A stretch of 61,447 nt of DNA, counting the filler, from Basidiobolus ranarum (Eukaryota), in NCBI GenBank assembly GCA_040143965.1. It is 12 parts of 12 records of this genome, joined end to end, with 100 filler letters (N's around TTAATTAATTAA, not from the genome) between each part and the next. Parts side by side here need not be neighbours in the genome. Positions count along the whole stretch, not along the records: positions 56,433 to 61,447 come from JASJQH010008618.1; 11 more parts are not named here. The stretch is one strand, 5' to 3'. Within the stretch, counting starts at the first letter, position 1. Each line of letters begins with the position of its first letter. Below the pieces are notes generated by a model. That model did no database searches. It was not told the origin of the DNA and worked only from the letters and a program-made list of their open reading frames with translations. Below, piece by piece: positions 1 through 59,821 of the stretch. Position numbers and translations under genes: made by a program.

Positions 1-115
1 CATTCATACAAATACTCCTGATCTCCATACATTAGTTAAGAAACTACAAAAGTAGTTATGGCTTCTTTGTTTTGTTTGAAATAAAGATTTCACCTGTTGG
101 TGACTGTCTCCCCCC
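1..115 (-). repeat. Terminus of a dispersed repeat (putative DNA-transposon end); reverse complement of 61169-61284
   Basis: 1-118 aligns almost base for base with the reverse complement of 61166-61284. Similarity stops at ...GTGACTGTCTCCCCCC|TAA. Confidence 0.8.
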
Positions 116-2007
116 TAAGCACATATTGAATATATATATTTTTCCTTATTTCGAAGGAGTGAATGCACTTGAATTAAGAAAAATCATTGATTCCGTTATA
201 CAGTTGGCGGTGGGAAAACCCCAATGCTTGCCTTAGTGTTACTAGGGTTAAATTCTATCCGAAGTTAAGGCGATGCTTCCAACTATGTCAGATTTTACAA
301 GCATGTACGTTACAGGAATACGCTACAAGAAGGAACTATAGGAAGTTGCTTAGATTATATGTATTCTTGAATTTTCCAAAGCATAAGTCACTTCGAATTA
401 CATAGCCATTGAACCAACAAGCATTGTCACTTTACTACTGCGCTTGTGTTTAATTTGTCGACTTATTACTGCTATGTTGCACACCCGCCACCACACCGTC
501 CAAATTTAGTTTTGTATGATAAAAGTGGCTAATTTTAGATAGTAGTGGTAACACATCGGTTAATAACTACATATTAACACTTTTATTGATGCATACCACC
601 AGATACATACCGCCAGATGGGATTTTAGTACATATCTTATATATCTGGCTATGTTATAGTCGAATTTACCCGGTCCATTGAAAACCATAAACCCTCTAAG
701 ACACTATGAAGAATACTGAAATCATAGCAGCACTTCGGCTAATTTGTGCATTAAATCATTGAAATTTTGGGCCTTTATCTTCTTTTATTCGCTTTTATGC
801 GTCGCACTAAGCTTGATATCAGCCACTTGTAAAACACTAAACATGATGTAAATAATTAATGACGAGCCAACTCTTCTCATCAATGGTAACAAGCAACTAA
901 CAAACTCCGCTATCTCTGCTAAGTACTTATTCATGGTACTCTCATCTATCATTTGCTTTGCTTCCTCAGTAACTACAAGAGTATGCGGTTATTCTGGGCC
1001 AGTGACTAGGTTCCCAAGTGTGAGATTGGTAATAATGAAAATGGTAGCGGTGGGAATAACGGCAATGGTGGATCCAGCAATGATCATATCAATTAGGCTG
1101 GATTTGGTTGGGAACTTCGAAAACTAGGTTCCCAATTTCTATATTGACCCAGTAGATATCAAAATAATCAGCTTTAGTCATACCTGCGATTCTGATCCTA
1201 CTGGATGTGCCAATATCCGTGCTCTAAGGCTATATATTGTTTATTTCCTATATCAAATCTCTCGATGTACAAGTCAACAGGTAAATCTGAGCCTCATCAA
1301 TTTGTGGAAACATTAGTAAGTTTGTACATGTCATTAGCATGTTAAGTTAGTGTCAAGATCAGAGTGAGTGAGCGCCTCCCTCACAAGCATATTGCTGCCA
1401 CTAGTGCCTGGGGAAGCTTACAACTGGCTTTCTCTCATCTGGAATATTACCATAGAATACCTTATCCCATTTGTTATATCCACCGGTAATCAGTGGAAGT
1501 AACGAGTAGAACAGCAGGGGTCGTTGGCAGAAAATCTCAGTTATATTTATACTCTCGGTAGTGTTAATTTCCTCACGGCTATTTGTGTGCTTTCGTGTAC
1601 ATTTTTTCATTGGCATTACTAAAATGGAGCATAGAAATGCTTCCTCGGATGCAACTATCCAGAAAAAGAGCCTGAGAACCTCAAAGATGGGTAACGATTT
1701 AGCATTAAAAGGATTACCTCCCTTGGTCTCCATGTCTTTGTTGATCGAAGTGCTACAACCGAATTTAACCGTGCAATCATTCTGAAACGTCTACCATAAT
1801 TAGCTACAATGAAGATTCGAAAGCTGGCGAAGCAAGCGAAAACGGAGAACCCAGCTATAATTTCCTTTTGTGAAACATGACAAAACATCTATTAAAGGAG
1901 CCTAAAACTCTCCTGAGAGCTAATACCACTAGTGCACAGCAGTATCCAAGGTGAGCATTGCATATGAATTTTGATGAAATGTTGTTCACTGATCGTTATT
2001 GTTAGAG

Positions 2008-2220
2008 ATGAGGTTTTCCGTCGCCAGCATTTTGATTGCCCTTAGCCTAATTGCCGTCATCCAAGCTGCTACTTGTAGATGCTACAATGATGACGCAGAT
2101 TACACCAAGAACTGTTGTGGACCTTCTGGTGGCAGTTATTCCAGATCAAAGTGCACCGTCAAGTCTTCTAGTAGATTTGATAAATGTTGTCAAGGATTTG
2201 GTGAACTCTCCGATTGTTAG
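2008..2220 (+). CDS. Small secreted cysteine-rich protein (70 aa, 8 Cys); candidate KP6-like effector/toxin fold
   Basis: ATG at 2008. Hydrophobic signal peptide MRFSVASILIALSLIAVIQA. Mature part has C-x-C-x10-CC-x11-C-x10-CC-x8-C and ends on Cys, then TAG. Confidence 0.8.
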   Translation: MRFSVASILIALSLIAVIQAATCRCYNDDADYTKNCCGPSGGSYSRSKCTVKSSSRFDKCCQGFGELSDC

Positions 2221-3489
2221 AGAAACCTTTTACAATACTGCGCTGAAGAAGATCTTCAATAAAAGATCCTTTAACTTACTAAATCGCTCAGTACAAACTT
2301 TTTAAATTAAAAATCGGAGGATTTGTTTCTAACTATGGGATGCATGCTGTATCAATATGACCAACTATGCTGACATTCCTGCACTTATTGGTATTTATTT
2401 CTTTTGTATTATCTCAAAAACAGAGAGAGAATCTCCACCGCAATTAACATCACCTATTCCCACTCACAAAGAATGTTTACCGATAGTAAACAAATAAAAC
2501 CTTGGACCTATCTGGAAGAGCTTAATCAATGGATAACACAGTATGTAAGTATTAGCTGTTCCATGGCACATTCTTGATATTAATGAAAGCCCACAATAAT
2601 GTTGTAGTACTAGATATATTCAAGCAATGAGGAGTTTGCGTATTATGAGCATGAAACATCATATGTGCCATAGTTAGGAAGTCATTAACTCAGTGCTGCC
2701 TATTTCACCTCACCATGAAATGTATAAGTGAAGTCTACCGAACTTTTTGATTTAGCATGTATTGCAATGAACATTGTTTTTTGGCACAATGTTTGTGTAT
2801 CGTAATATCAAAGCTCCTATCTTGTTTCTGCTTAATAATCTGGCTATTTAGCAATCCCAGAAACAATCCAGCACAAAGTTTCCGGCCAAAGTCTCCCAGC
2901 CTCAACATGGAACATTATTTCCAATACTAATATTAATTATGATTCACTCTGCTTACATATTCAACTCTCATATTATTCCATACGGCTCTTCATTCAGATT
3001 CTCTTTGTATTTTTAAACATTAGGAAACAAAGACCTCATCAAAACAGAATTCTCTCCAATATCTCTGGCGGCAGGATAGATTATAAGCAATGCCAGGAGA
3101 TAAATTGAGTCTGAATCCAAGATACCGACTCTGGATACGCACACATCTGAGATTCATGAAATTTGCCCAAAAGACTCTAGCATGTGTAATTCCGAATAAC
3201 TTCTTTTAACAGTGACTTACTATTAGGCAATACATGGAGGTAGTTATACACTAGAGCTCATAACTGATTCCTTTTTTTTTGCTTGCATTTTTCAAAGGAC
3301 AATATCTCTACATCGGCTTCATGATTCAACTTGATATTTGTCACATAGCCTACCCAATGGTCAAATCACAGTCTTTGATGTTAAGTAAGTGGTTTCAGTA
3401 CTCCTTATGATGCTATTAACATTTGTATTAGGTACTATCAATAAATCACTTTTGAGCTCACATTATCTTAAATTATGATTTGCCACTAG

Positions 3490-4144
3490 TTTGGGAATAA
3501 TACCATATTAATACTTGGTGACTGGTGGGCTGGTGGGCTGGAAATGAAAAGTATCATGAGCCCAATACAGGCGTCGGAATGGAAAAAATGTTAGCCAAAG
3601 AAGGCTTCCAGCTATACCTCCTTGACAAGTTTAAAACTTCAAGCCTGGGCCCTACGTGCCAGAACGGTGAACTGGAAAAGTTTCAAAAAGTCCAAAATCC
3701 TAGACCATACAAAATAGAAAAGTATTCTACTGTATGTCGTCACGGCCTTTTAAGGTAAACATAAGGTAACCGCTTTTTATATGCAAGTAAAAAATTCCAA
3801 CCTAATTTCTGTTCAGGTTCAAAAACCAACAGTGTTTAAAGGTCGTGGCCAATACTACTGAGGATTCTCCCCTTCGTCCTTGGAATTGCGACCTGGCTGC
3901 TACTTTGAACTTCAGACATATCCTTTTTAACTTGTGCTCAAATGGGGAAAGACCAGAGAGTTCTTGCAGATTGAAGGAACCTCTCTCCACTGGATATAAA
4001 AGAAAGGGTATCTCGTCATCTAGCTGCAGTCGACCAACGAAAAAAGCAAATAATCCTGTGTGGTTATCGCTACACCAAACTTTTGATACAGAGTAAGTCT
4101 TTGAACACTTTTTATTTTGCCATGTGTCTTCACTTATCTCCAAT
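3490..4144 (+). mobile_element. Fanzor (TnpB-derived RuvC nuclease) remnant, copy 1; C-terminal half, inactivated, with intron 3755-3816
   Basis: Spliced translation: FGNNTILILGDW(8-nt duplication frameshift)AGNEKYHEP..GMEKML.KEGF.LYLLDKFKTSSLGPTC..VQNPRP..HGLLR|FKNQQC..RPWNCDLAATLNFRHIL..GERP. Homologous to 56433-57735. Confidence 0.88.
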
Positions 4145-4247
4145 TTTTTGCGATCATTTATTTTATGAAATGTCTAATTGAATTTATTAATTCATCTCAT
4201 TTTAGATTAAACATTGTAGGTAACTAATCATCTTAGTGTAGATAATG

Positions 4248-5042
4248 TTATTGCTTTTCTGCAAGATATACCTCCATTTCTCTAGCATACCTTGCCTTAT
4301 CCTCTGCAGCTTTCTGGTCCCAAGGTGCTCTCTCCTCCGGCGCCATAAGATTCCACTGATGCGCTATGATTTTGCTAATCGGTCCCACCGTACTACCAGG
4401 ATATTGCTCGGCCACTTGCGGACGTATTGCAGAAAGATAGAACAGAAATCCGGACATTGGATGTTTAGGGGCAGCCGGATTCTTCTGTTTCTTCTTTTTA
4501 CGTCCTCTGGGATCTTTAGTGGCTGGCTCTTCATCACAATCCCGCTTTCTTTCCGCTTCGATTTCAGCCTTGGAGCGACGAGTATAAATGAAATCGGGGG
4601 TTGTCGCTAGGAAATCTTTCTTTAAACTTTGGGCTTCGGTGAAGTATTTGTTACGTTCTTCCTATGAAATGAGACGAAATGAATAGTTAGTGTCGTAAAT
4701 GAAATTCGACATATATCTTCCATCTCGATTAACTTACCTCTCCTAGGCTTTTCCAACGATCCCCGATTTCCTTACTGATTTCGGCGACGCTCATATTGGG
4801 ATTAGTTTCGAGTAGTTTGTGTCGCATCTCCTTATTGAAAAGTAAATACGCATTCATGGGTCTTGTGAGTTTAGACGCCCCATCATCGCCAGCGGAACGC
4901 CGACGGTACTTCTTTTTCGTATTATTCGGTCTACGGGGATAAAGGTAATAAGGTTTGGTCTATAAGAATTCAGTTTTCAGCGTACGAGCGCGTTCAACAT
5001 AATCTTATTTTCGTGATTCCTCCATCTTTGCCCACTCATCTC
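4248..5042 (-). CDS. Multi-HMG-box DNA-binding protein (at least 3 boxes); 5'-truncated by contig end; intron 4662-4737; two in-frame stops, so possibly a pseudogene
   Basis: Reads DEWAKMEESRK*DYVERARTLKTEFL*TKPYYLYPRR..RPMNAYLLFNKEMRHKL..EISKEIGDRWKSLGE|EERNKYFTEA..PDFIYTRR..PAAPKHPMSGFLFY..DKARYAREM. The GTAAGT..CTAAC..TAG intron preserves frame. Confidence 0.85.
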
Positions 5043-56432: not shown

Positions 56433-57735
56433 ATTGGAAATAAGTGAAGACACATGGCAAAAGAAACTTACTCAAATATTTAGTGTGGCGATTGTGTTTA
56501 GTGTAGCGATAACCACACAGGATTTGATAACCACACAGGAATATTTGCTTTTTGAGTTGGTCGCCTGCTGCTAGCCGACGAAGTACCCTTTCTTTTATAC
56601 CCGGTGGAGAGAGGTTCCTTCAATCTGCAAAAACGTTATGGTGTTTCCCCATTTGAGCGCAAGTTAAAAAAGGATATGTCAAAGTAGCGACCAGGTCACG
56701 ATTCCAAAGTCGAAAGGGGAAATCTTCAGTAGTTGCCTCAGTAGTATTGGCCACGACCTTTTAACACTGTTGGTTTTTCCACCTGAACAGAAATTAGGTT
56801 GGAATTTTTACTTGCATATAAAAAGCGTTTACCTTAAAAGGCCACAATAGGATATTTTTCTCTTTTGTATGGTCTAGGATTTTGGACTTTTTTGAAACTT
56901 TTCAAGTTCACCGTTCTGGCAAGTAGGGCACAGACTTGAAGTTTTAAACTCATCAAGAAGGTATGGCTGGAAGCCTTCTTTGGCTATCATTTTTCTCATT
57001 CCGATACCTCTATTGGGTTCATGATACTTTACATTTCCAGCCAACCAGTCACCAAGTATTAATATAGTATCATTCCCAAACTACCGTTAGTCAGATTGTA
57101 GTTGGTTAATAAAACTTGAGAGCTTCATTTTTCTAAAAAGTAACAAACCGCTGGTACACCGGTCTTCTCCTGCAGGGTGATCTTCATTTGAGTAATATGT
57201 TCTCATGACCGGAGTGACTTTGGCTTTTTCTTGAAGATACTTAGCAAGCTTGTCTTTGTCGGCAGTGGAAGATTTCAAATGTGATAGGGAACGCTCAGCT
57301 GTGATGACTTGGTCTGTCTTTAGGTTCTCTCTGAGCTTCCTGAATTTTCTGTACTTTGTTTTAATTGCTTTTTGGGTGCGTGTATATTGGTAAACCAGTT
57401 TGTTTTCAGCGGTACTTTCTTCGTGCATACAGTACAGTAAATCGCGATGTCCAGGATCAATTAGCACGTATTTGCCAGCACCAGCCTTCAACTCTTCTCT
57501 TCCCAACTTCTTCACATACTGAAACTCCTCTTGTGAAGCAAGAGACTTTGATTTTGCGCCACTACCACCCTTCTTCTTCGTATCATGGTTTTGCTTTAAC
57601 ACCGACGCACCTACACCATCTGTTTACATCATACCTCTGAACTTTATTGACTGGCCTTTTCCTTGCGGCTTCATTACCTTTGAGGTGAGGTCAAGAACGG
57701 TTCCCCATACTGCTTCTTTATCCAAGTTGACTTCC
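56433..57735 (-). mobile_element. Fanzor remnant, copy 2 (WED end through RuvC-I/II/III and zinc finger); 5'-truncated, inactivated, intron 56783-56832
   Basis: VWGTVLDL..KFRGMM*TDGVGASVL, FQYV, VLIDPGHRDLLYCMHE (RuvC-I), FRKMKLSSFINQ, FGND.ILILGDW.AGNVKYHEP.RGIGMRKM, LDEFKTSSLCPTC, NPRP, GLLR|WKNQQC, RLWNRDLVAT (RuvC-III). Contains several stops and indels. Confidence 0.92.
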
Positions 57736-58447
57736 AAACGTAATCATCACAGTAAATAGACACTCGAACTATATCTCACCTCTTTCTAGGGAAAATATGT
57801 AAATTTTAGGATTTAAGAATGAAATAAACATTTACCATCAATAAATCTATCCCAGTAAATTCGAACATATTTAGGTCAATGGATATGTTTGGTAAAAGTG
57901 CTCATATTAATAGTGGCTCACGTGCAGTTAATTCCTTAACAGGCCAATATCGTCCTCTTTTAGGAACATGTAGATCGTATTTCCAGTGACTTTTTTACGA
58001 ACTATGGGTTGAATGTGATTGGTAATCCTCTGTTGGTATCCAGTTGTAAATACAAACTAGCGTATTAGGGCAACGAGTAAACTGAGAGTACAAACTAGAC
58101 AACATTTTGTCTTAAGCAGCACACAGATGTTTCAAATAAGTAAGATAAATTCATATTTCACAAAAAGGAAATCATCACGCTTCCAATCAGGGTTATAACT
58201 AACAAATACTAAGATATGGAGAAAAAAGATCTTGGTACATCCCCCGTAGAATTGCTAGGATGTTTTCTAGAAAGAAAACGTCGTGTACTTGATGTGGATT
58301 TATTAAAGTTGTGGTAAATGAAAGTGTTATGGGATGGAGTTGAGATAAATAGTGGCTTTTCAATTTAACAAGACGAAACAATATGATATACGATCAACGC
58401 AGGGAAATAAGTTAAACTCGTCAGATATCCCCAATCAGTTCAGGTTC

Positions 58448-59821
58448 TCACGTGATTGTCAACTTCCTTTTCTCATGAGCTTCGTGAGAAGCCACTTCCA
58501 TAATGAATGACAGTTGATTAGCAACATCACGAAGCACTTTGAGAACAATTCCGTTACTTTTAACGAATCCATGAATGTGGTATTTAAGGCCAACTTGGTC
58601 ACAAAATTCTTTTACAAAAGGCTGAACCGCCCGAAAATTATGTCTAGGAAGTCGTGGAAAGAGATGGTGAATTGCCTGGAACTGAAGGCCTCCATGGAAC
58701 CAGTCCATCCACGGGGGACAGTCAATATCCATGGTAGTGCGAAGCTGCCAACCTGCAAAACTCTCATCGGGCCCGCCGTCATCTGTAGACATACCAAAGT
58801 GAGATAGTGTGATCTGAGTAAAGGTCACCATGGTTAAAGCGTGTGAAAGAACGATGAACATGAGTGCCATTCCCCAGCTTGAGATGAATGAAACAAGATA
58901 CGAATACCAAGAAAGAAAGAAGGCCATTCCTAAAAACTCCAATTTACGTAGTGGTACATGATCATCAGTCAGCAAGTAGACAACTCCTTGGGCATAAAAA
59001 TCCAATCTGGCGATGCAAAGGACGAAGTAGAAGAGATAGTGCTGGATAGGGACGAAGATTTTAGCGACCCGATCGAATCGCATCACTTTGTTGTGATAAC
59101 TCGAAAACAAATTGTGGAAAAACTTGGATGTGACTGCTAGAAAAGGTAATTTCTGGATATCGGGGTCATGCTCAGGATTCTTAGTTATGATGTGATGAAT
59201 ATTGTGATTCTTTTTCCACCATCCGATAGACAATCCACCAGTAAAGTTATGCAAGAAGATACCAATGATGCTGTCATAGGTACTGTTGTGGGTGATTTCA
59301 TTATGGCAAGCATCGTGCGCACAAAAGATACTTTGGTGCCAGAAAAATGCATTTGCAAATGCGGCAGTGACATAGCTCCATGTAGTTTGTGGTCCCCAAA
59401 CAATCAGACCCACCATAATAATGAAGGCAACGATACATCGCGCGGCCTCCCAAGAGTAGCACCAGTAATTTGTTTCGTAAAGACCGTGAGAACGAATTTT
59501 GATATCAAGACGCTTGTAGGCTTCGGATATTTGCTTCTGTATCTTCAGCTCAGAGTTAGCGGTAAGTGGATCCTCAATTAAGTTGCCAACATAAAAGTGG
59601 GCCATTTTTGTAGATAATACCCATTCTGGATGCATCGCTCGGATTACATCAGTGGCATCTTTACCTAGCATATGTTCAACTGCAAGCCTACCACCAGGGT
59701 GCTGTTTGATCCAATTGTTCAGCCTATAAACACGACAGTCATAAACAATTAGTATCTCCCCCTTTTCTATACGACTTCTTACTTCTTCCATAGTAAACAA
59801 TGCCATTGTGTGGGTTTCCAT
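58448..59821 (-). CDS. SLD1: Cytochrome-b5-fused front-end-type desaturase, most like delta-8 sphingolipid desaturase; intronless
   Basis: WIKQHPGG heme motif; His boxes HDACH, HNIHH, QAIHH; PEHDPDIQ, QITLSHFGM, QLRTTMDIDCP.W.DWFHGGLQFQ. First ATG at 59821. Confidence 0.85.
   Translation of the reverse strand: METHTMALFTMEEVRSRIEKGEILIVYDCRVYRLNNWIKQHPGGRLAVEHMLGKDATDVIRAMHPEWVLSTKMAHFYVGNLIEDPLTANSELKIQKQISEAYKRLDIKIRSHGLYETNYWCYSWEAARCIVAFIIMVGLIVWGPQTTWSYVTAAFANAFFWHQSIFCAHDACHNEITHNSTYDSIIGIFLHNFTGGLSIGWWKKNHNIHHIITKNPEHDPDIQKLPFLAVTSKFFHNLFSSYHNKVMRFDRVAKIFVPIQHYLFYFVLCIARLDFYAQGVVYLLTDDHVPLRKLEFLGMAFFLSWYSYLVSFISSWGMALMFIVLSHALTMVTFTQITLSHFGMSTDDGGPDESFAGWQLRTTMDIDCPPWMDWFHGGLQFQAIHHLFPRLPRHNFRAVQPFVKEFCDQVGLKYHIHGFVKSNGIVLKVLRDVANQLSFIMEVASHEAHEKRKLTIT

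What the first reader, a model, noticed from the sequence alone, without database searches (positions are those of the whole stretch)
56433..57735. A multicopy Fanzor (eukaryotic RNA-guided TnpB-like nuclease) family, two copies on separate contigs
Seen: this copy and 3490-4144 are clearly homologous. They carry TDGV.xS, IDPGxRDL, ILGDW, KYHEP, DEFKTS, CPxC, NPRP, HGLLR and WNRD.AA.LN motifs. Established: this motif order is that of fungal Fanzor1 proteins, with RuvC-I Asp (IDPG), the rearranged RuvC-II Glu (DE.xTS) and RuvC-III Asp (NRD). Copy 2 keeps all three acidic residues but has stops and frameshifts; copy 1 has E>K. Inference: two copies within 12 unrelated 5-kb contigs suggests a numerous mobile family, so intact copies may exist elsewhere. 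The copies have largely different lesions, so a consensus of the C-terminal half can be rebuilt. Fanzors are a known class; what may be new is this family and host lineage.
Basis: partly seen in the sequence, partly recalled or inferred. Interest (0 to 1): 0.8.

Follow-up and report, generated by a model that had tools for sequence, protein, structure and literature searches.

The report
Dead Fanzor1 transposon relics, Basidiobolus-like fungus
These are two broken, front-truncated leftovers of an already described fungal Fanzor1 (RNA-guided nuclease) transposon family; the only unusual point is that they sit in a Basidiobolus-like fungus although their nearest relatives are in Rhizopus, which suggests the element once jumped between distant fungi.

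Summary
Window 56434-57731 (minus) and 3487-4216 (plus) are homologous (79.5% DNA identity). They match solved Fanzor1 nucleases: PpFz1 E=2.3e-55, SpuFz1 5.1e-23. Both are dead, 5'-truncated relics. Copy 2 keeps about the last 395 codons, with 5 in-frame stops and 3 frameshifting indels. Copy 1 keeps the last ~175 codons, with one frameshift, E>K at RuvC-II and two lost zinc-ribbon cysteines.

The family is not new. It is the ROr-3 Fanzor1 element of Rhizopus (Bao & Jurka 2013). An intact ROr-3-type element (L001) is 76% identical in DNA. It shares the intron site, the omega-RNA SL1 hairpin and the TIR end followed by TA.

The new point is the host. The desaturase gene on copy 2's contig is 72% identical to Basidiobolus ranarum and only 42-43% to Rhizopus. 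B. ranarum has five decayed gene-model fragments of the family. In the tree the Basidiobolus copies are sister to R. arrhizus/delemar ROr-3 (99/96), and dS to L001 is about 0.65. This suggests cross-phylum horizontal transfer, about 0.65 likely. AU tests do not reject vertical topologies (p=0.098, 0.32).

Copy number and intact copies in this genome could not be tested. Interest is low to moderate.

The parts
56434..57731 (-). Copy 2: 5'-truncated Fanzor1 pseudogene. It corresponds to residues 182-577 of the 577-aa Rhizopus protein P0002. Its 3' side is cut by the contig start.
   Evidence: tblastn with P0002 gives 57728-56832 (66% identity, E=8e-127) and 56905-56534. blastn to L001 gives 76.3% over 1260 columns. 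There is no similarity in 57732-58447.
57456..57458 (-). Copy 2: RuvC-I Asp codon (D of IDPG).
   Evidence: It aligns with the DPG of PpFz1 and SpuFz1.
56949..56951 (-). Copy 2: RuvC-II Glu codon (E of DEFKTS), just before the zinc-ribbon CPTC at 56919-56930.
   Evidence: It aligns with DEFRTS of PpFz1 and DEYKTS of SpuFz1.
56695..56697 (-). Copy 2: RuvC-III Asp codon (D of WNRD), in a different frame from exon 1.
   Evidence: The copy 1 equivalent aligns with WNRD of PpFz1.
57081..57089 (-). Copy 2: two in-frame stops (TAA 57087-57089, TAG 57081-57083) at a 21-bp deletion. Further stops lie at 57624-57626, 56761-56763 and 56636-56638. Frameshifting indels relative to L001: +1 near 56894, -10 near 56844, -7 near 56674.
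56783..56832 (-). Copy 2: retained intron (GTAAAC...TTCAG, 50 nt) at the HGLLR|C site.
   Evidence: The site is the same as the L001 intron at 4038-4096.
56501..56518 (-). Copy 2: omega-RNA SL1-like hairpin (6-bp stem, loop TTATCG). An 18-bp duplication of its 5' half lies at 56525-56542.
3487..4216 (+). Copy 1: 5'-truncated Fanzor1 pseudogene (residues 405-577 of P0002) plus the 3' non-coding part, up to the element's end.
   Evidence: tblastn. blastn to L001 gives 75.5% over 645 columns plus the TIR.
3525..3532 (+). Copy 1: 8-bp insertion (frameshift) after ILGDW.
3627..3629 (+). Copy 1: Lys codon at the RuvC-II Glu position (DKFKTS). GPTC at 3648-3659 has lost the first zinc-ribbon Cys. WNCD lies at 3881-3892.
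3755..3816 (+). Copy 1: retained intron (62 nt).
   Evidence: Removing it restores the reading HGLLR-FKNQQC.
4058..4075 (+). Copy 1: omega-RNA SL1-like hairpin, GTGTGG-TTATCG-CTACAC.
4154..4216 (+). Copy 1: remnant of the 3' terminal inverted repeat. It ends ...TTTTAGATTAAACATTG and is followed by TA at 4217-4218.
   Evidence: 79% identity over 58 bp to both TIR arms of L001. The L001 TIR is 135 nt and 89% complementary.
58451..59821 (-). Host gene on copy 2's contig: a cytochrome-b5-fused fatty-acid desaturase. It is used only to place the host.
   Evidence: 72% identity to B. ranarum, 69% to B. meristosporus, 42-43% to Rhizopus delemar.

Best explanation
Both loci are dead relics of a ROr-3-type Fanzor1 DNA transposon.

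In its intact form (L001, 2.86 kb) the element has:
- 135-nt terminal inverted repeats;
- insertion at TA;
- one two-exon gene for a Fanzor1, which is a TnpB-derived, omega-RNA-guided RuvC DNA endonuclease with a zinc-ribbon TNB domain;
- an omega-RNA that starts with the stem-loop SL1 at the 3' end of the reading frame.

The element has no transposase gene of its own. It presumably relies on a Tc1/mariner-type transposase supplied in trans (inferred from the TA duplication and the TIRs).

In the window nothing can be made:
- Copy 2 lacks the N-terminal ~45% of the protein (relative to the 720-aa ROr-3 protein). It has 5 in-frame stops and 3 frameshifting indels.
- Copy 1 keeps only the last quarter. 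It has a frameshift, E>K at the catalytic Glu, and two lost zinc-ribbon cysteines.

The host is a Basidiobolus-like fungus. The element most likely entered that lineage by horizontal transfer from, or shared with, the Rhizopus arrhizus/delemar lineage of Mucorales, and then decayed. I put that sub-claim at about 0.65. The identity as Fanzor1 relics is shown. The mode of mobilisation and the transfer are inferred.
For: Identity:
- phmmer against the PDB finds PpFz1 at 2.3e-55, SpuFz1 at 5.1e-23 and GtFz1 at 9.3e-4. Those are 3 of the 3 distinct sequences matched at E<=10.
- The best database proteins are Rhizopus at 63-69% identity (76 hits at E<=1e-3 among 1561 candidates).
- Short motifs taken from P0002 occur in the ROr-3 protein of PMC3627910, Additional file 3.

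Match to the intact element L001 (its product is 100% identical to P0002):
- 76.3% DNA identity with copy 2 and 75.5% with copy 1.
- Same intron site.
- TIR end 79% identical over 58 bp, then TA.

SL1 hairpin:
- It is found in 6 of 11 sequences scanned.
- 5 of 7 pairs change on both sides. 88.6% of cells pair, against 61.8% in shuffles; 0 of 500 shuffles reach the observed value.
- The same loop occurs in the PpFz1 omega-RNA row of a supplementary table of PMC11423790.

Decay: stops and indels are listed.

Host: desaturase identities are.

Transfer:
- In the tree, window copy 2 plus 3 B. ranarum rows form a clade (97/94). It is sister to the R. arrhizus/delemar clade (joint support 99/96) and excludes R. 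microsporus.
- dS to L001 is 0.64 (bootstrap 0.49-0.83) for copy 2 and 0.67 (0.44-1.04) for copy 1, with dN/dS 0.26-0.27.
- Fanzor identity falls from 65-69% (R. arrhizus/delemar) to 38-52% (other Mucoromycota). The host desaturase is a uniform 41-45% to Mucoromycotina.
- Among named relatives, only Mucoromycota (all but one Umbelopsis hit are Mucorales) and B. ranarum appear.
Against: Against the transfer sub-claim:
- AU tests do not reject trees that keep all Rhizopus rows together (p=0.32).
- They also do not reject trees that keep all 29 named Mucoromycota rows together against the Basidiobolus rows and the outgroup (p=0.098, lnL difference 13.5).
- Only one host gene was compared, and no host dS could be computed.
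- Transposon families have paralogous lineages within a genome. The R. microsporus rows therefore need not be orthologues of ROr-3.
- Contig 1 (copy 1) carries no gene that places its organism.

Against simple neutral decay:
- dN/dS between the two window copies is 0.48 (bootstrap 0.29-0.85).
- Their intron is identical at 50 of 50 aligned positions. Part of their divergence therefore predates inactivation.

Database limits:
- The local Pfam copy gives no hit, even for intact relatives.
- The precomputed family PF26935 that the databases attach to the relatives is not in the local copy.
Confidence: 0.92

Rival explanations
1. Vertical inheritance. A ROr-3-like Fanzor1 family was already present in the common ancestor of Basidiobolus and Mucorales. 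It was kept in a few lineages, and the tree reflects sorting of old paralogues rather than transfer.
For: AU tests do not reject the constrained trees (p=0.098 and 0.32). Mucorales genomes hold several Fanzor1 families each: 4 in R. oryzae and 10 in Mucor circinelloides (PMC3627910, Table 1).
Against: dS to the Rhizopus-type element is only about 0.65, and DNA identity is 76%. That includes the intron (84%, 42 of 50) and the TIR (79%).

The linked host protein is only 42-43% identical to Rhizopus.

The window copy is nearer to R. arrhizus (path 0.44) than my sum of branch lengths from R. microsporus to R. arrhizus (about 0.5).

No relative from any other named phylum was seen.
Confidence: 0.25
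2. Assembly artefact. The Fanzor sequences are contaminating Mucorales DNA, or a chimeric join, and are not part of the Basidiobolus-like genome.
For: Contig 1 has no gene that places its organism. The contigs are short (about 5 kb), and copy 2 lies at a contig edge.
Against: Copy 2 lies 720 bp from a Basidiobolus-like desaturase on one contig.

The copies are only 76% identical to the Rhizopus-type element and are decayed.

An independently annotated B. ranarum assembly has five fragments on five contigs. The three of them placed in the tree cluster with the window copy.
Confidence: 0.03
3. A partly functional RNA or DNA module. The proteins are dead, but copy 1's 3' part (SL1, downstream block, TIR end) could still give an omega-RNA or be recognised in trans, if intact Fanzor1 or transposase copies exist elsewhere in the genome.
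For: SL1 is intact in both copies. The element end plus TA is kept in copy 1. Both copies kept the 3' side and lost the 5' side.
Against: No intact copy is known in any Basidiobolus: 0 of the 76 hits of 509-2000 aa are from Basidiobolus.

The 5' TIR is missing, and the internal TIR part carries deletions.

The fold of 4050-4216 is not unusual (z=-1.64; 13 of 200 shuffles fold as well).
Confidence: 0.08

Closest known systems
ROr-3 Fanzor1 element of Rhizopus oryzae/delemar RA 99-880 (Bao & Jurka 2013, PMC3627910); an intact example here is L001 with product P0002
   Same: Highest protein identity (63-69%) and 76% DNA identity. Same intron site, with a similar intron sequence. The SL1 hairpin lies at the end of the reading frame. 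The terminal sequence is ...TTTTAGATTAAA(A)CA(C/T)TG followed by TA. There is no FRI insertion.
   Different: The host is Basidiobolus-like (a different phylum). Both copies are 5'-truncated and mutationally dead. In the window copies the reading frame runs about 11 codons past the ROr-3 stop position.
PpFz1, Parasitella parasitica Fanzor1 (PDB 9cf0-9cf3; Xu et al. 2024, PMC11423790)
   Same: E=2.3e-55 over WED, RuvC and TNB. DPG, DEF(K/R)TS, CPxC and WNRD are aligned. The omega-RNA SL1 has the same TTATCG loop.
   Different: PpFz1 carries the ~100-aa Fanzor RuvC Insertion (FRI) that binds cyclophilin. The window copy and ROr-3 lack it: chain residues 986-1092 have no counterpart. PpFz1 is an active enzyme; these copies are relics.
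SpuFz1, Spizellomyces punctatus Fanzor1 (PDB 8gkh)
   Same: E=5.1e-23 over 281 residues. Same catalytic motif order. Its element (SPu-1) also has TIRs and a TA duplication (PMC3627910, Additional file 1).
   Different: Much more distant. It has a single exon. It comes from a chytrid host.
Bacterial TnpB of IS200/IS605 and IS607
   Same: RuvC D/E/D with a zinc ribbon, and a guide RNA encoded at the 3' end of the gene. This rests on established knowledge and on PMC3627910 and PMC10711439, of which I read passages only.
   Different: The window element is eukaryotic, contains an intron, and sits in a TIR/TA cut-and-paste element rather than an IS with TnpA. No Pfam TnpB model reaches threshold.

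Membership tests
Fanzor1 | Significant sequence similarity to experimentally characterised Fanzor1 nucleases | tested here: met
   PpFz1 2.3e-55, SpuFz1 5.1e-23, GtFz1 9.3e-4. The C-terminal piece of copy 1 matches PpFz1 at E=0.017.
Fanzor1 | RuvC catalytic triad D...E...D in the Bao-Jurka motif D-X(125,275)-[TS][TS]-X-X-C4-X(5,50)-RD | tested here: inconclusive
   Copy 2 keeps all three acidic codons (57456-8, 56949-51, 56695-7), but they lie in different frames, separated by stops. Copy 1 lacks the first Asp (truncated), has K for E, and keeps the last D in WNCD.
Fanzor1 | C4 zinc ribbon (TNB domain) | tested here: not met
   Copy 2 has CPTC, but the first Cys of the second pair is W. Copy 1 has GPTC and F at those places. 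Intact relatives have CPSC...C-KNQQ-C. The failure is due to decay, not to a different fold.
Fanzor1 | Complete open reading frame including N-terminal WED/REC | tested here: not met
   Copy 2 starts at residue 182 of P0002 and copy 1 at residue 405. Stops and frameshifts are listed.
Fanzor1 | Omega-RNA with a conserved first stem-loop (SL1) encoded at the 3' end of the gene | tested here: met
   Hairpin with TTATCG loop at 4058-4075 and 56501-56518. Covariation across L001, L003-L005 and the window copies. The PpFz1 omega-RNA row shows the same loop. SL1 is described as 7 bp in PMC11423790, section 5; here it is 6 bp.
Fanzor1 | RNA-guided double-strand DNA cleavage next to a TAM | not testable with these tools
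   This needs biochemistry. The relics could not encode an active enzyme anyway.
ROr-3 element family | TIR transposon with TA duplication and ROr-3-like termini | tested here: inconclusive
   Copy 1 keeps a 3' TIR remnant (79% over 58 bp) that ends at 4216 and is followed by TA. No 5' end is present in either copy, so the duplication cannot be confirmed. Copy 2's end lies beyond the contig.
ROr-3 element family | Closest relationship to ROr-3 among Fanzor1 families, with the shared intron site | tested here: met
   Tree. DNA identity and intron. Motif look-up in the ROr-3 sequences of PMC3627910. The distant loci L003-L007 have no intron at that site.

The most novel reading that the evidence does not exclude
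A Fanzor1-carrying TIR transposon crossed between fungal phyla. It moved from the Rhizopus arrhizus/delemar lineage (Mucorales), or from a shared donor, into the Basidiobolus lineage. There it multiplied and then died out. In addition, the element's single intron carries a constrained sequence block of unknown function, such as an internal regulatory element for the downstream omega-RNA. The intron is 84% conserved between Rhizopus-type and Basidiobolus-like copies, against about 57% identity at synonymous sites.
Probability: 0.55. Interest if true: 0.5.

Novelty: new member of a known kind. Interest (0 to 1): 0.3.

Why it matters
As a nuclease the find adds nothing. The family, its structure class and its activity are already known, and these copies are dead.

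Its value is evolutionary. It would be a documented case of a Fanzor1 element shared between Mucorales and Basidiobolus. That bears on how Fanzor-carrying transposons spread among eukaryotes. Xu et al. 2024 raised this idea for the mycoparasite Parasitella in their discussion (passage read).

No paper in the searched library mentions Fanzor together with Basidiobolus (supplements were not searched).

The conserved intron block and the covarying SL1 are small leads for how the guide RNA of this lineage is made.

Tried and rejected
- Pfam: no family at threshold. This holds for the pieces (best was PF07282 at E=0.23), for the read-through P0001, and for five intact or near-intact close relatives. 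One distant relative, P0024, reaches PF07282 at 24.6 bits, below the cut-off of 26.3.
- Rfam on 3700-4300: only a chance-level hit, 18.9 bits against a gathering score of 60.
- Own genome: not held. Copy number, junction reads and expression were therefore not examined.
- Earlier findings of the scan: nothing.
- A third copy, a solo TIR or the missing 5' halves in the window: none. There are only two 14-mers at E=0.07.
- Ungapped search with the ROr-3 terminal 22-mer: 0 matches, because of a 1-nt indel.
- AU tests: not significant.
- First Ka/Ks attempt: discarded, because tblastn read through shifted frames. It was redone on DNA alignments.
- Intron folding: no stable structure (z from -0.47 to +0.80).
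- A second intron that might remove the two stops at 57081-57089: considered and rejected. The coding similarity runs right up to the stops, and only 9 nt lie between the flanks.
- A lesion shared by both copies (TAG directly before TTTGGG): the alignment is ambiguous and chance is about 1 in 16, so it is left open.
- Protein Atlas on the HMG-box ORF next to copy 1: it does not place the host.
- Structure prediction and complex prediction: not run, because the sequence match to solved Fanzor1 structures already answers the fold question.
Full report
**1. What is in the sequence**

The window is a chain of 12 contigs of 5015-5042 bp, separated by N/TTAATTAATTAA/N spacers. The finding's region lies on the last contig (56433-61447). 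Its proposed partner lies on the first (1-5042).

BLASTN of 56434-58447 against the whole window finds only itself and 3487-4143, at 79.5% identity over 689 aligned columns. No further copy or fragment was found. I checked with tblastn using four intact relatives, and with blastn using a whole intact element and its terminal repeat. The latter gave only two 14-mers at E=0.07.

**2. What it is**

I read copy 2 through with X at its stops (P0001, 290 residues). It matches three distinct sequences in the PDB:
- Parasitella parasitica Fanzor1 (9cf0), E=2.3e-55;
- Spizellomyces punctatus Fanzor1 (8gkh), E=5.1e-23;
- Guillardia theta Fanzor1 (9cer), E=9.3e-4.

The alignments place IDPG on the DPG of the solved enzymes. 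They place DEFKTS-x-CPTC on DEFRTS-x-CPKC of PpFz1. Copy 1's WNCD aligns with WNRD of PpFz1.

The local Pfam copy finds nothing at threshold, even for intact relatives. The databases attach a precomputed family, PF26935, to the relatives, but that family is absent from the local copy.

**3. Which family**

Among proteins of 509-2000 aa, 76 of 1561 candidates score E<=1e-3. The best six are Rhizopus arrhizus/delemar proteins, 63-69% identical.

Short motifs from the best hit, P0002, occur in the ROr-3 protein in Additional file 3 of Bao & Jurka 2013 (PMC3627910). Their Additional file 1 describes ROr-3 as 2862 bp, 16 copies, both ends known, 133-bp TIR, 2-bp TA duplication, and a 720-aa protein in 2 exons. 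Of that paper I read passages and parts of three supplementary files.

A scan of metagenome contigs returned L001, a 4815-bp contig. Its product is 100% identical to P0002. L001 holds a whole element:
- inverted repeats at 1721-1855 and 4446-4580 (135 nt, 89% complementary);
- TA on both sides;
- an intron at 4038-4096.

Against L001, copy 2 is 76.3% identical over 1260 columns. Copy 1 is 75.5% identical over 645 columns. Copy 1's 3' end (4154-4211) matches both repeat arms at 79%. Copy 1 ends ...TTTTAGATTAAACATTG at 4216, followed by TA. L001 ends ...TTTTAGATTAAAACACTA followed by TA. The printed ROr-3 consensus ends ...AAAACACTG.

Both window copies keep the intron at the same codon (HGLLR|C). 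Distant Fanzor1 loci L003-L007 have no intron there. By eye, ROr-1, ROr-2 and PBl-2 in the paper's file do.

The roughly 100-residue FRI insertion of PpFz1 (chain 986-1092) has no counterpart in the window copy. The P0002 sequence has no such insert either. Xu et al. 2024 report FRI only in Parasitella and Rhizopus (PMC11423790, discussion passage). By eye, the ROr-1 protein sequence printed carries such an insert.

**4. State of the two copies**

*Copy 2* (56434-57731, minus strand) starts at residue 182 of the 577-aa P0002, which is about residue 325 of the 720-aa ROr-3 protein. Nothing upstream, as far as the stop of the neighbouring desaturase gene at 58448, resembles the N-terminal part.

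Its lesions are:
- in-frame stops at 57624-57626, 57087-57089, 57081-57083, 56761-56763 and 56636-56638;
- a 21-bp in-frame deletion at the second and third stops;
- frameshifting indels of +1 (near 56894), -10 (near 56844) and -7 (near 56674);
- an 18-bp duplication at 56525-56542;
- W in place of the third zinc-ribbon Cys.

All three acidic codons survive (57456-8, 56949-51, 56695-7). The contig begins inside the element's 3' non-coding part, so its end is not seen.

*Copy 1* (3487-4216, plus strand) starts at residue 405 of P0002. Its lesions are:
- an 8-bp insertion at 3525-3532;
- K for the catalytic E (3627-3629);
- GPTC for CPTC;
- F for the third Cys;
- WNCD for WNRD.

Neither copy can give a nuclease.

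**5. The RNA part**

In TnpB and Fanzor systems the guide RNA is encoded at the 3' end of the gene. Xu et al. describe a first stem-loop (SL1) of seven base pairs, common to three Fanzor1 omega-RNAs, which binds RuvC and TNB (PMC11423790, section 5).

I scanned 11 sequences (9 loci and the two window copies) for a hairpin of at least 4 bp around a TTA[TCA]CG loop. Six have one, at or just after the end of the reading frame:
- both window copies, GTGTGG-TTATCG-CTACAC;
- L001, a 5-bp stem with loop TTAACG;
- L003-L005, a 7-bp GC-rich stem with loop TTATCG.

The misses are L002, L008 and L009, whose matched parts do not reach the gene's 3' end, and L006 and L007, which lack this loop.

On the six-row alignment (5 distinct rows), 5 of 7 pairs change on both sides. 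88.6% of cells pair, against 61.8% in shuffles; 0 of 500 shuffles reach the observed value. All slid registers score lower. The rows represent only three independent lineages, so this is modest evidence.

The PpFz1 omega-RNA row in a supplementary table of PMC11423790 shows the same loop between CCAAAG and CTTTGG.

Where the guide would begin in this lineage is not settled. It could be about 75 nt after SL1, as in PpFz1, or at the element end, which here lies about 155 nt after SL1. The fold of 4050-4216 as a whole is not unusual (z=-1.64).

**6. The host**

The complete desaturase ORF on copy 2's contig (58451-59821, minus strand) is 72% identical to a Basidiobolus ranarum protein and 69% to B. 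meristosporus. It is 50-52% identical to Glomeromycotina and 41-45% to Mucoromycotina, including 42-43% to Rhizopus delemar (best 120 of 3915 hits listed). The two Basidiobolus proteins are 80% identical to each other.

The host is therefore Basidiobolus-like, but neither of those two species, or else the gene is a paralogue. Contig 1 has no gene that places it.

**7. Relatives in Basidiobolus, and the case for transfer**

Among proteins of 159-508 aa, 48 of 704 candidates score E<=1e-10. Four of them are short B. ranarum gene models, 72-84% identical over 22-61% of the query. An exhaustive profile-free search gave 1444 hits at E<=1e-3 and 83 at E<=1e-30.

I looked up ten of its high-identity representatives by name:
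- one is a fifth B. ranarum fragment;
- seven are Mucorales;
- two are unnamed.

By their contig lengths, the five B. ranarum fragments lie on five different contigs. At least one, P0239, is visibly decayed. None of the 76 hits of 509-2000 aa is from Basidiobolus.

For the tree I used 42 rows over the 289 columns of P0001: P0001 itself plus 41 of the 124 listed hits. I included every named genus except Basidiobolus P0239, which overlaps only 22% of the query. I also included the best unnamed rows and three distant metagenome rows as outgroup. Copy 1 was left out for short overlap.

In this tree:
- the window copy groups with three B. ranarum rows (97/94);
- that clade is sister to the R. arrhizus/delemar ROr-3 clade (95/96);
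- the two together have support 99/96 and exclude R. microsporus (100/99), Helicostylum, Thamnidium and the rest.

AU tests do not reject the best trees that hold all 14 Rhizopus rows together (p=0.32). They also do not reject trees that hold all 29 named Mucoromycota rows together against the Basidiobolus rows and the outgroup (p=0.098, lnL difference 13.5). The topology alone is therefore suggestive, not decisive.

Distances add to the case:
- dS to L001 is 0.64 (bootstrap 0.49-0.83; 378 codons) for copy 2 and 0.67 (0.44-1.04; 169 codons) for copy 1, with dN/dS 0.26-0.27.
- The intron is 84% identical to L001 (42 of 50), and the repeat end is 79% identical.
- Fanzor protein identity falls from 65-69% (R. 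arrhizus/delemar) to 59-62% (R. microsporus), 48-52% (Helicostylum, Thamnidium) and 38-43% (Phycomyces, Rhizomucor, Gilbertella, Umbelopsis).
- The host desaturase is about equally distant from all of these.

An outgroup gene inherited vertically should be about equidistant from all ingroup members. I therefore put horizontal transfer between the Rhizopus arrhizus/delemar lineage (or a shared donor) and the Basidiobolus lineage at about 0.65.

The direction is probably into Basidiobolus, for two reasons. The clade nests among Mucorales copies, and it shares their lineage-specific intron.

I could not compute host dS, and only one host gene was compared.

**8. History within this genome**

Between the two window copies, dS is 0.236 and dN/dS is 0.48 (bootstrap 0.29-0.85; 166 codons). 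Part of their divergence therefore arose while the sequences were still under protein-level selection. They are not simply two decaying duplicates of one dead copy.

Their intron is identical at 50 of 50 aligned positions, apart from indels of 11 and 1 bp. Flanking coding DNA is 83-91% identical, and the 3' non-coding part is 84% identical. The intron is also better conserved towards L001 (84%) than synonymous sites are (pS 0.43, that is, about 57% identity).

I found no stable fold in it and have no tested explanation. The 3' block fits a branch point plus 3' splice site. The 5' block (GCTTTTTATATGCAAGTAAAA) is unexplained.

**9. Literature and novelty**

Fanzor1 as a class, its RNA-guided activity and three structures are published. 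ROr-3 itself was described in 2013.

A full-text search for Fanzor together with Basidiobolus found 0 papers. Supplements are not covered by that search.

A survey of fungal cut-and-paste transposons calls Basidiobolus genomes very TE-rich. The passages I read do not mention Fanzor (PMC5751038).

The finding is a new (dead) member of a known family in a host lineage not yet reported in the searched texts, with a plausible cross-phylum transfer. As a nuclease resource it is of no use, because intact natural relatives are available.

**10. What remains open**

Three things could not be examined for this genome: copy number, the existence of intact copies, and expression.

Noticed in passing
window 3755-3816 and 56783-56832; L001 4038-4096: The element's single intron is unusually conserved. 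The two window copies are identical at 50 of 50 aligned positions, and 84% identical to the Rhizopus-type element, against about 57% identity at synonymous sites. By eye, a block GCTTTTTATATGCAAGT is also seen in ROr-3, and a similar one in PBl-2, in the 2013 paper's file. No stable fold was found, and the function is unknown.
   Followed up: partly
window 58451-59821 (-): A complete, intron-free ORF for a cytochrome-b5-fused front-end fatty-acid desaturase (PF00173+PF00487). It is 72% identical to Basidiobolus ranarum. It lies 720 bp upstream of the Fanzor relic, on the same strand.
   Followed up: partly
window 4248-4961 (-): An HMG-box gene, apparently with introns, lies immediately after the end of copy 1. 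The Atlas places it only as an HMG-box protein (score 0.90).
   Followed up: partly
window 56525-56542 (-): An 18-bp tandem duplication in copy 2 repeats the 5' half of the SL1 hairpin and the codons before it.
   Followed up: no
window 3487-3495 and 57075-57083: Both copies read TAG directly before TTTGGG, where the intact element has AGG. In copy 2 this is the junction of a 21-bp deletion. In copy 1 homology ends there. It is either a shared lesion or a coincidence (about 1 in 16).
   Followed up: partly
L003 5126-5145, L004 3653-3672, L005 1092-1111: Distant metagenomic Fanzor1 loci (30-32% identity) carry a 7-bp GC-rich hairpin with the same TTATCG loop, about 70 nt after the gene match. 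L006 and L007 lack it.
   Followed up: partly
L002 600-1002: This short metagenome contig encodes a ROr-1/PpFz1-like Fanzor1 piece that, by eye, includes the FRI-type insertion. That is a different family from the window copies.
   Followed up: no
whole window: The window is not one locus. It is twelve ~5-kb contigs in descending length order (5042 down to 5015 bp), with GC of 33.5-41.8%.
   Followed up: yes
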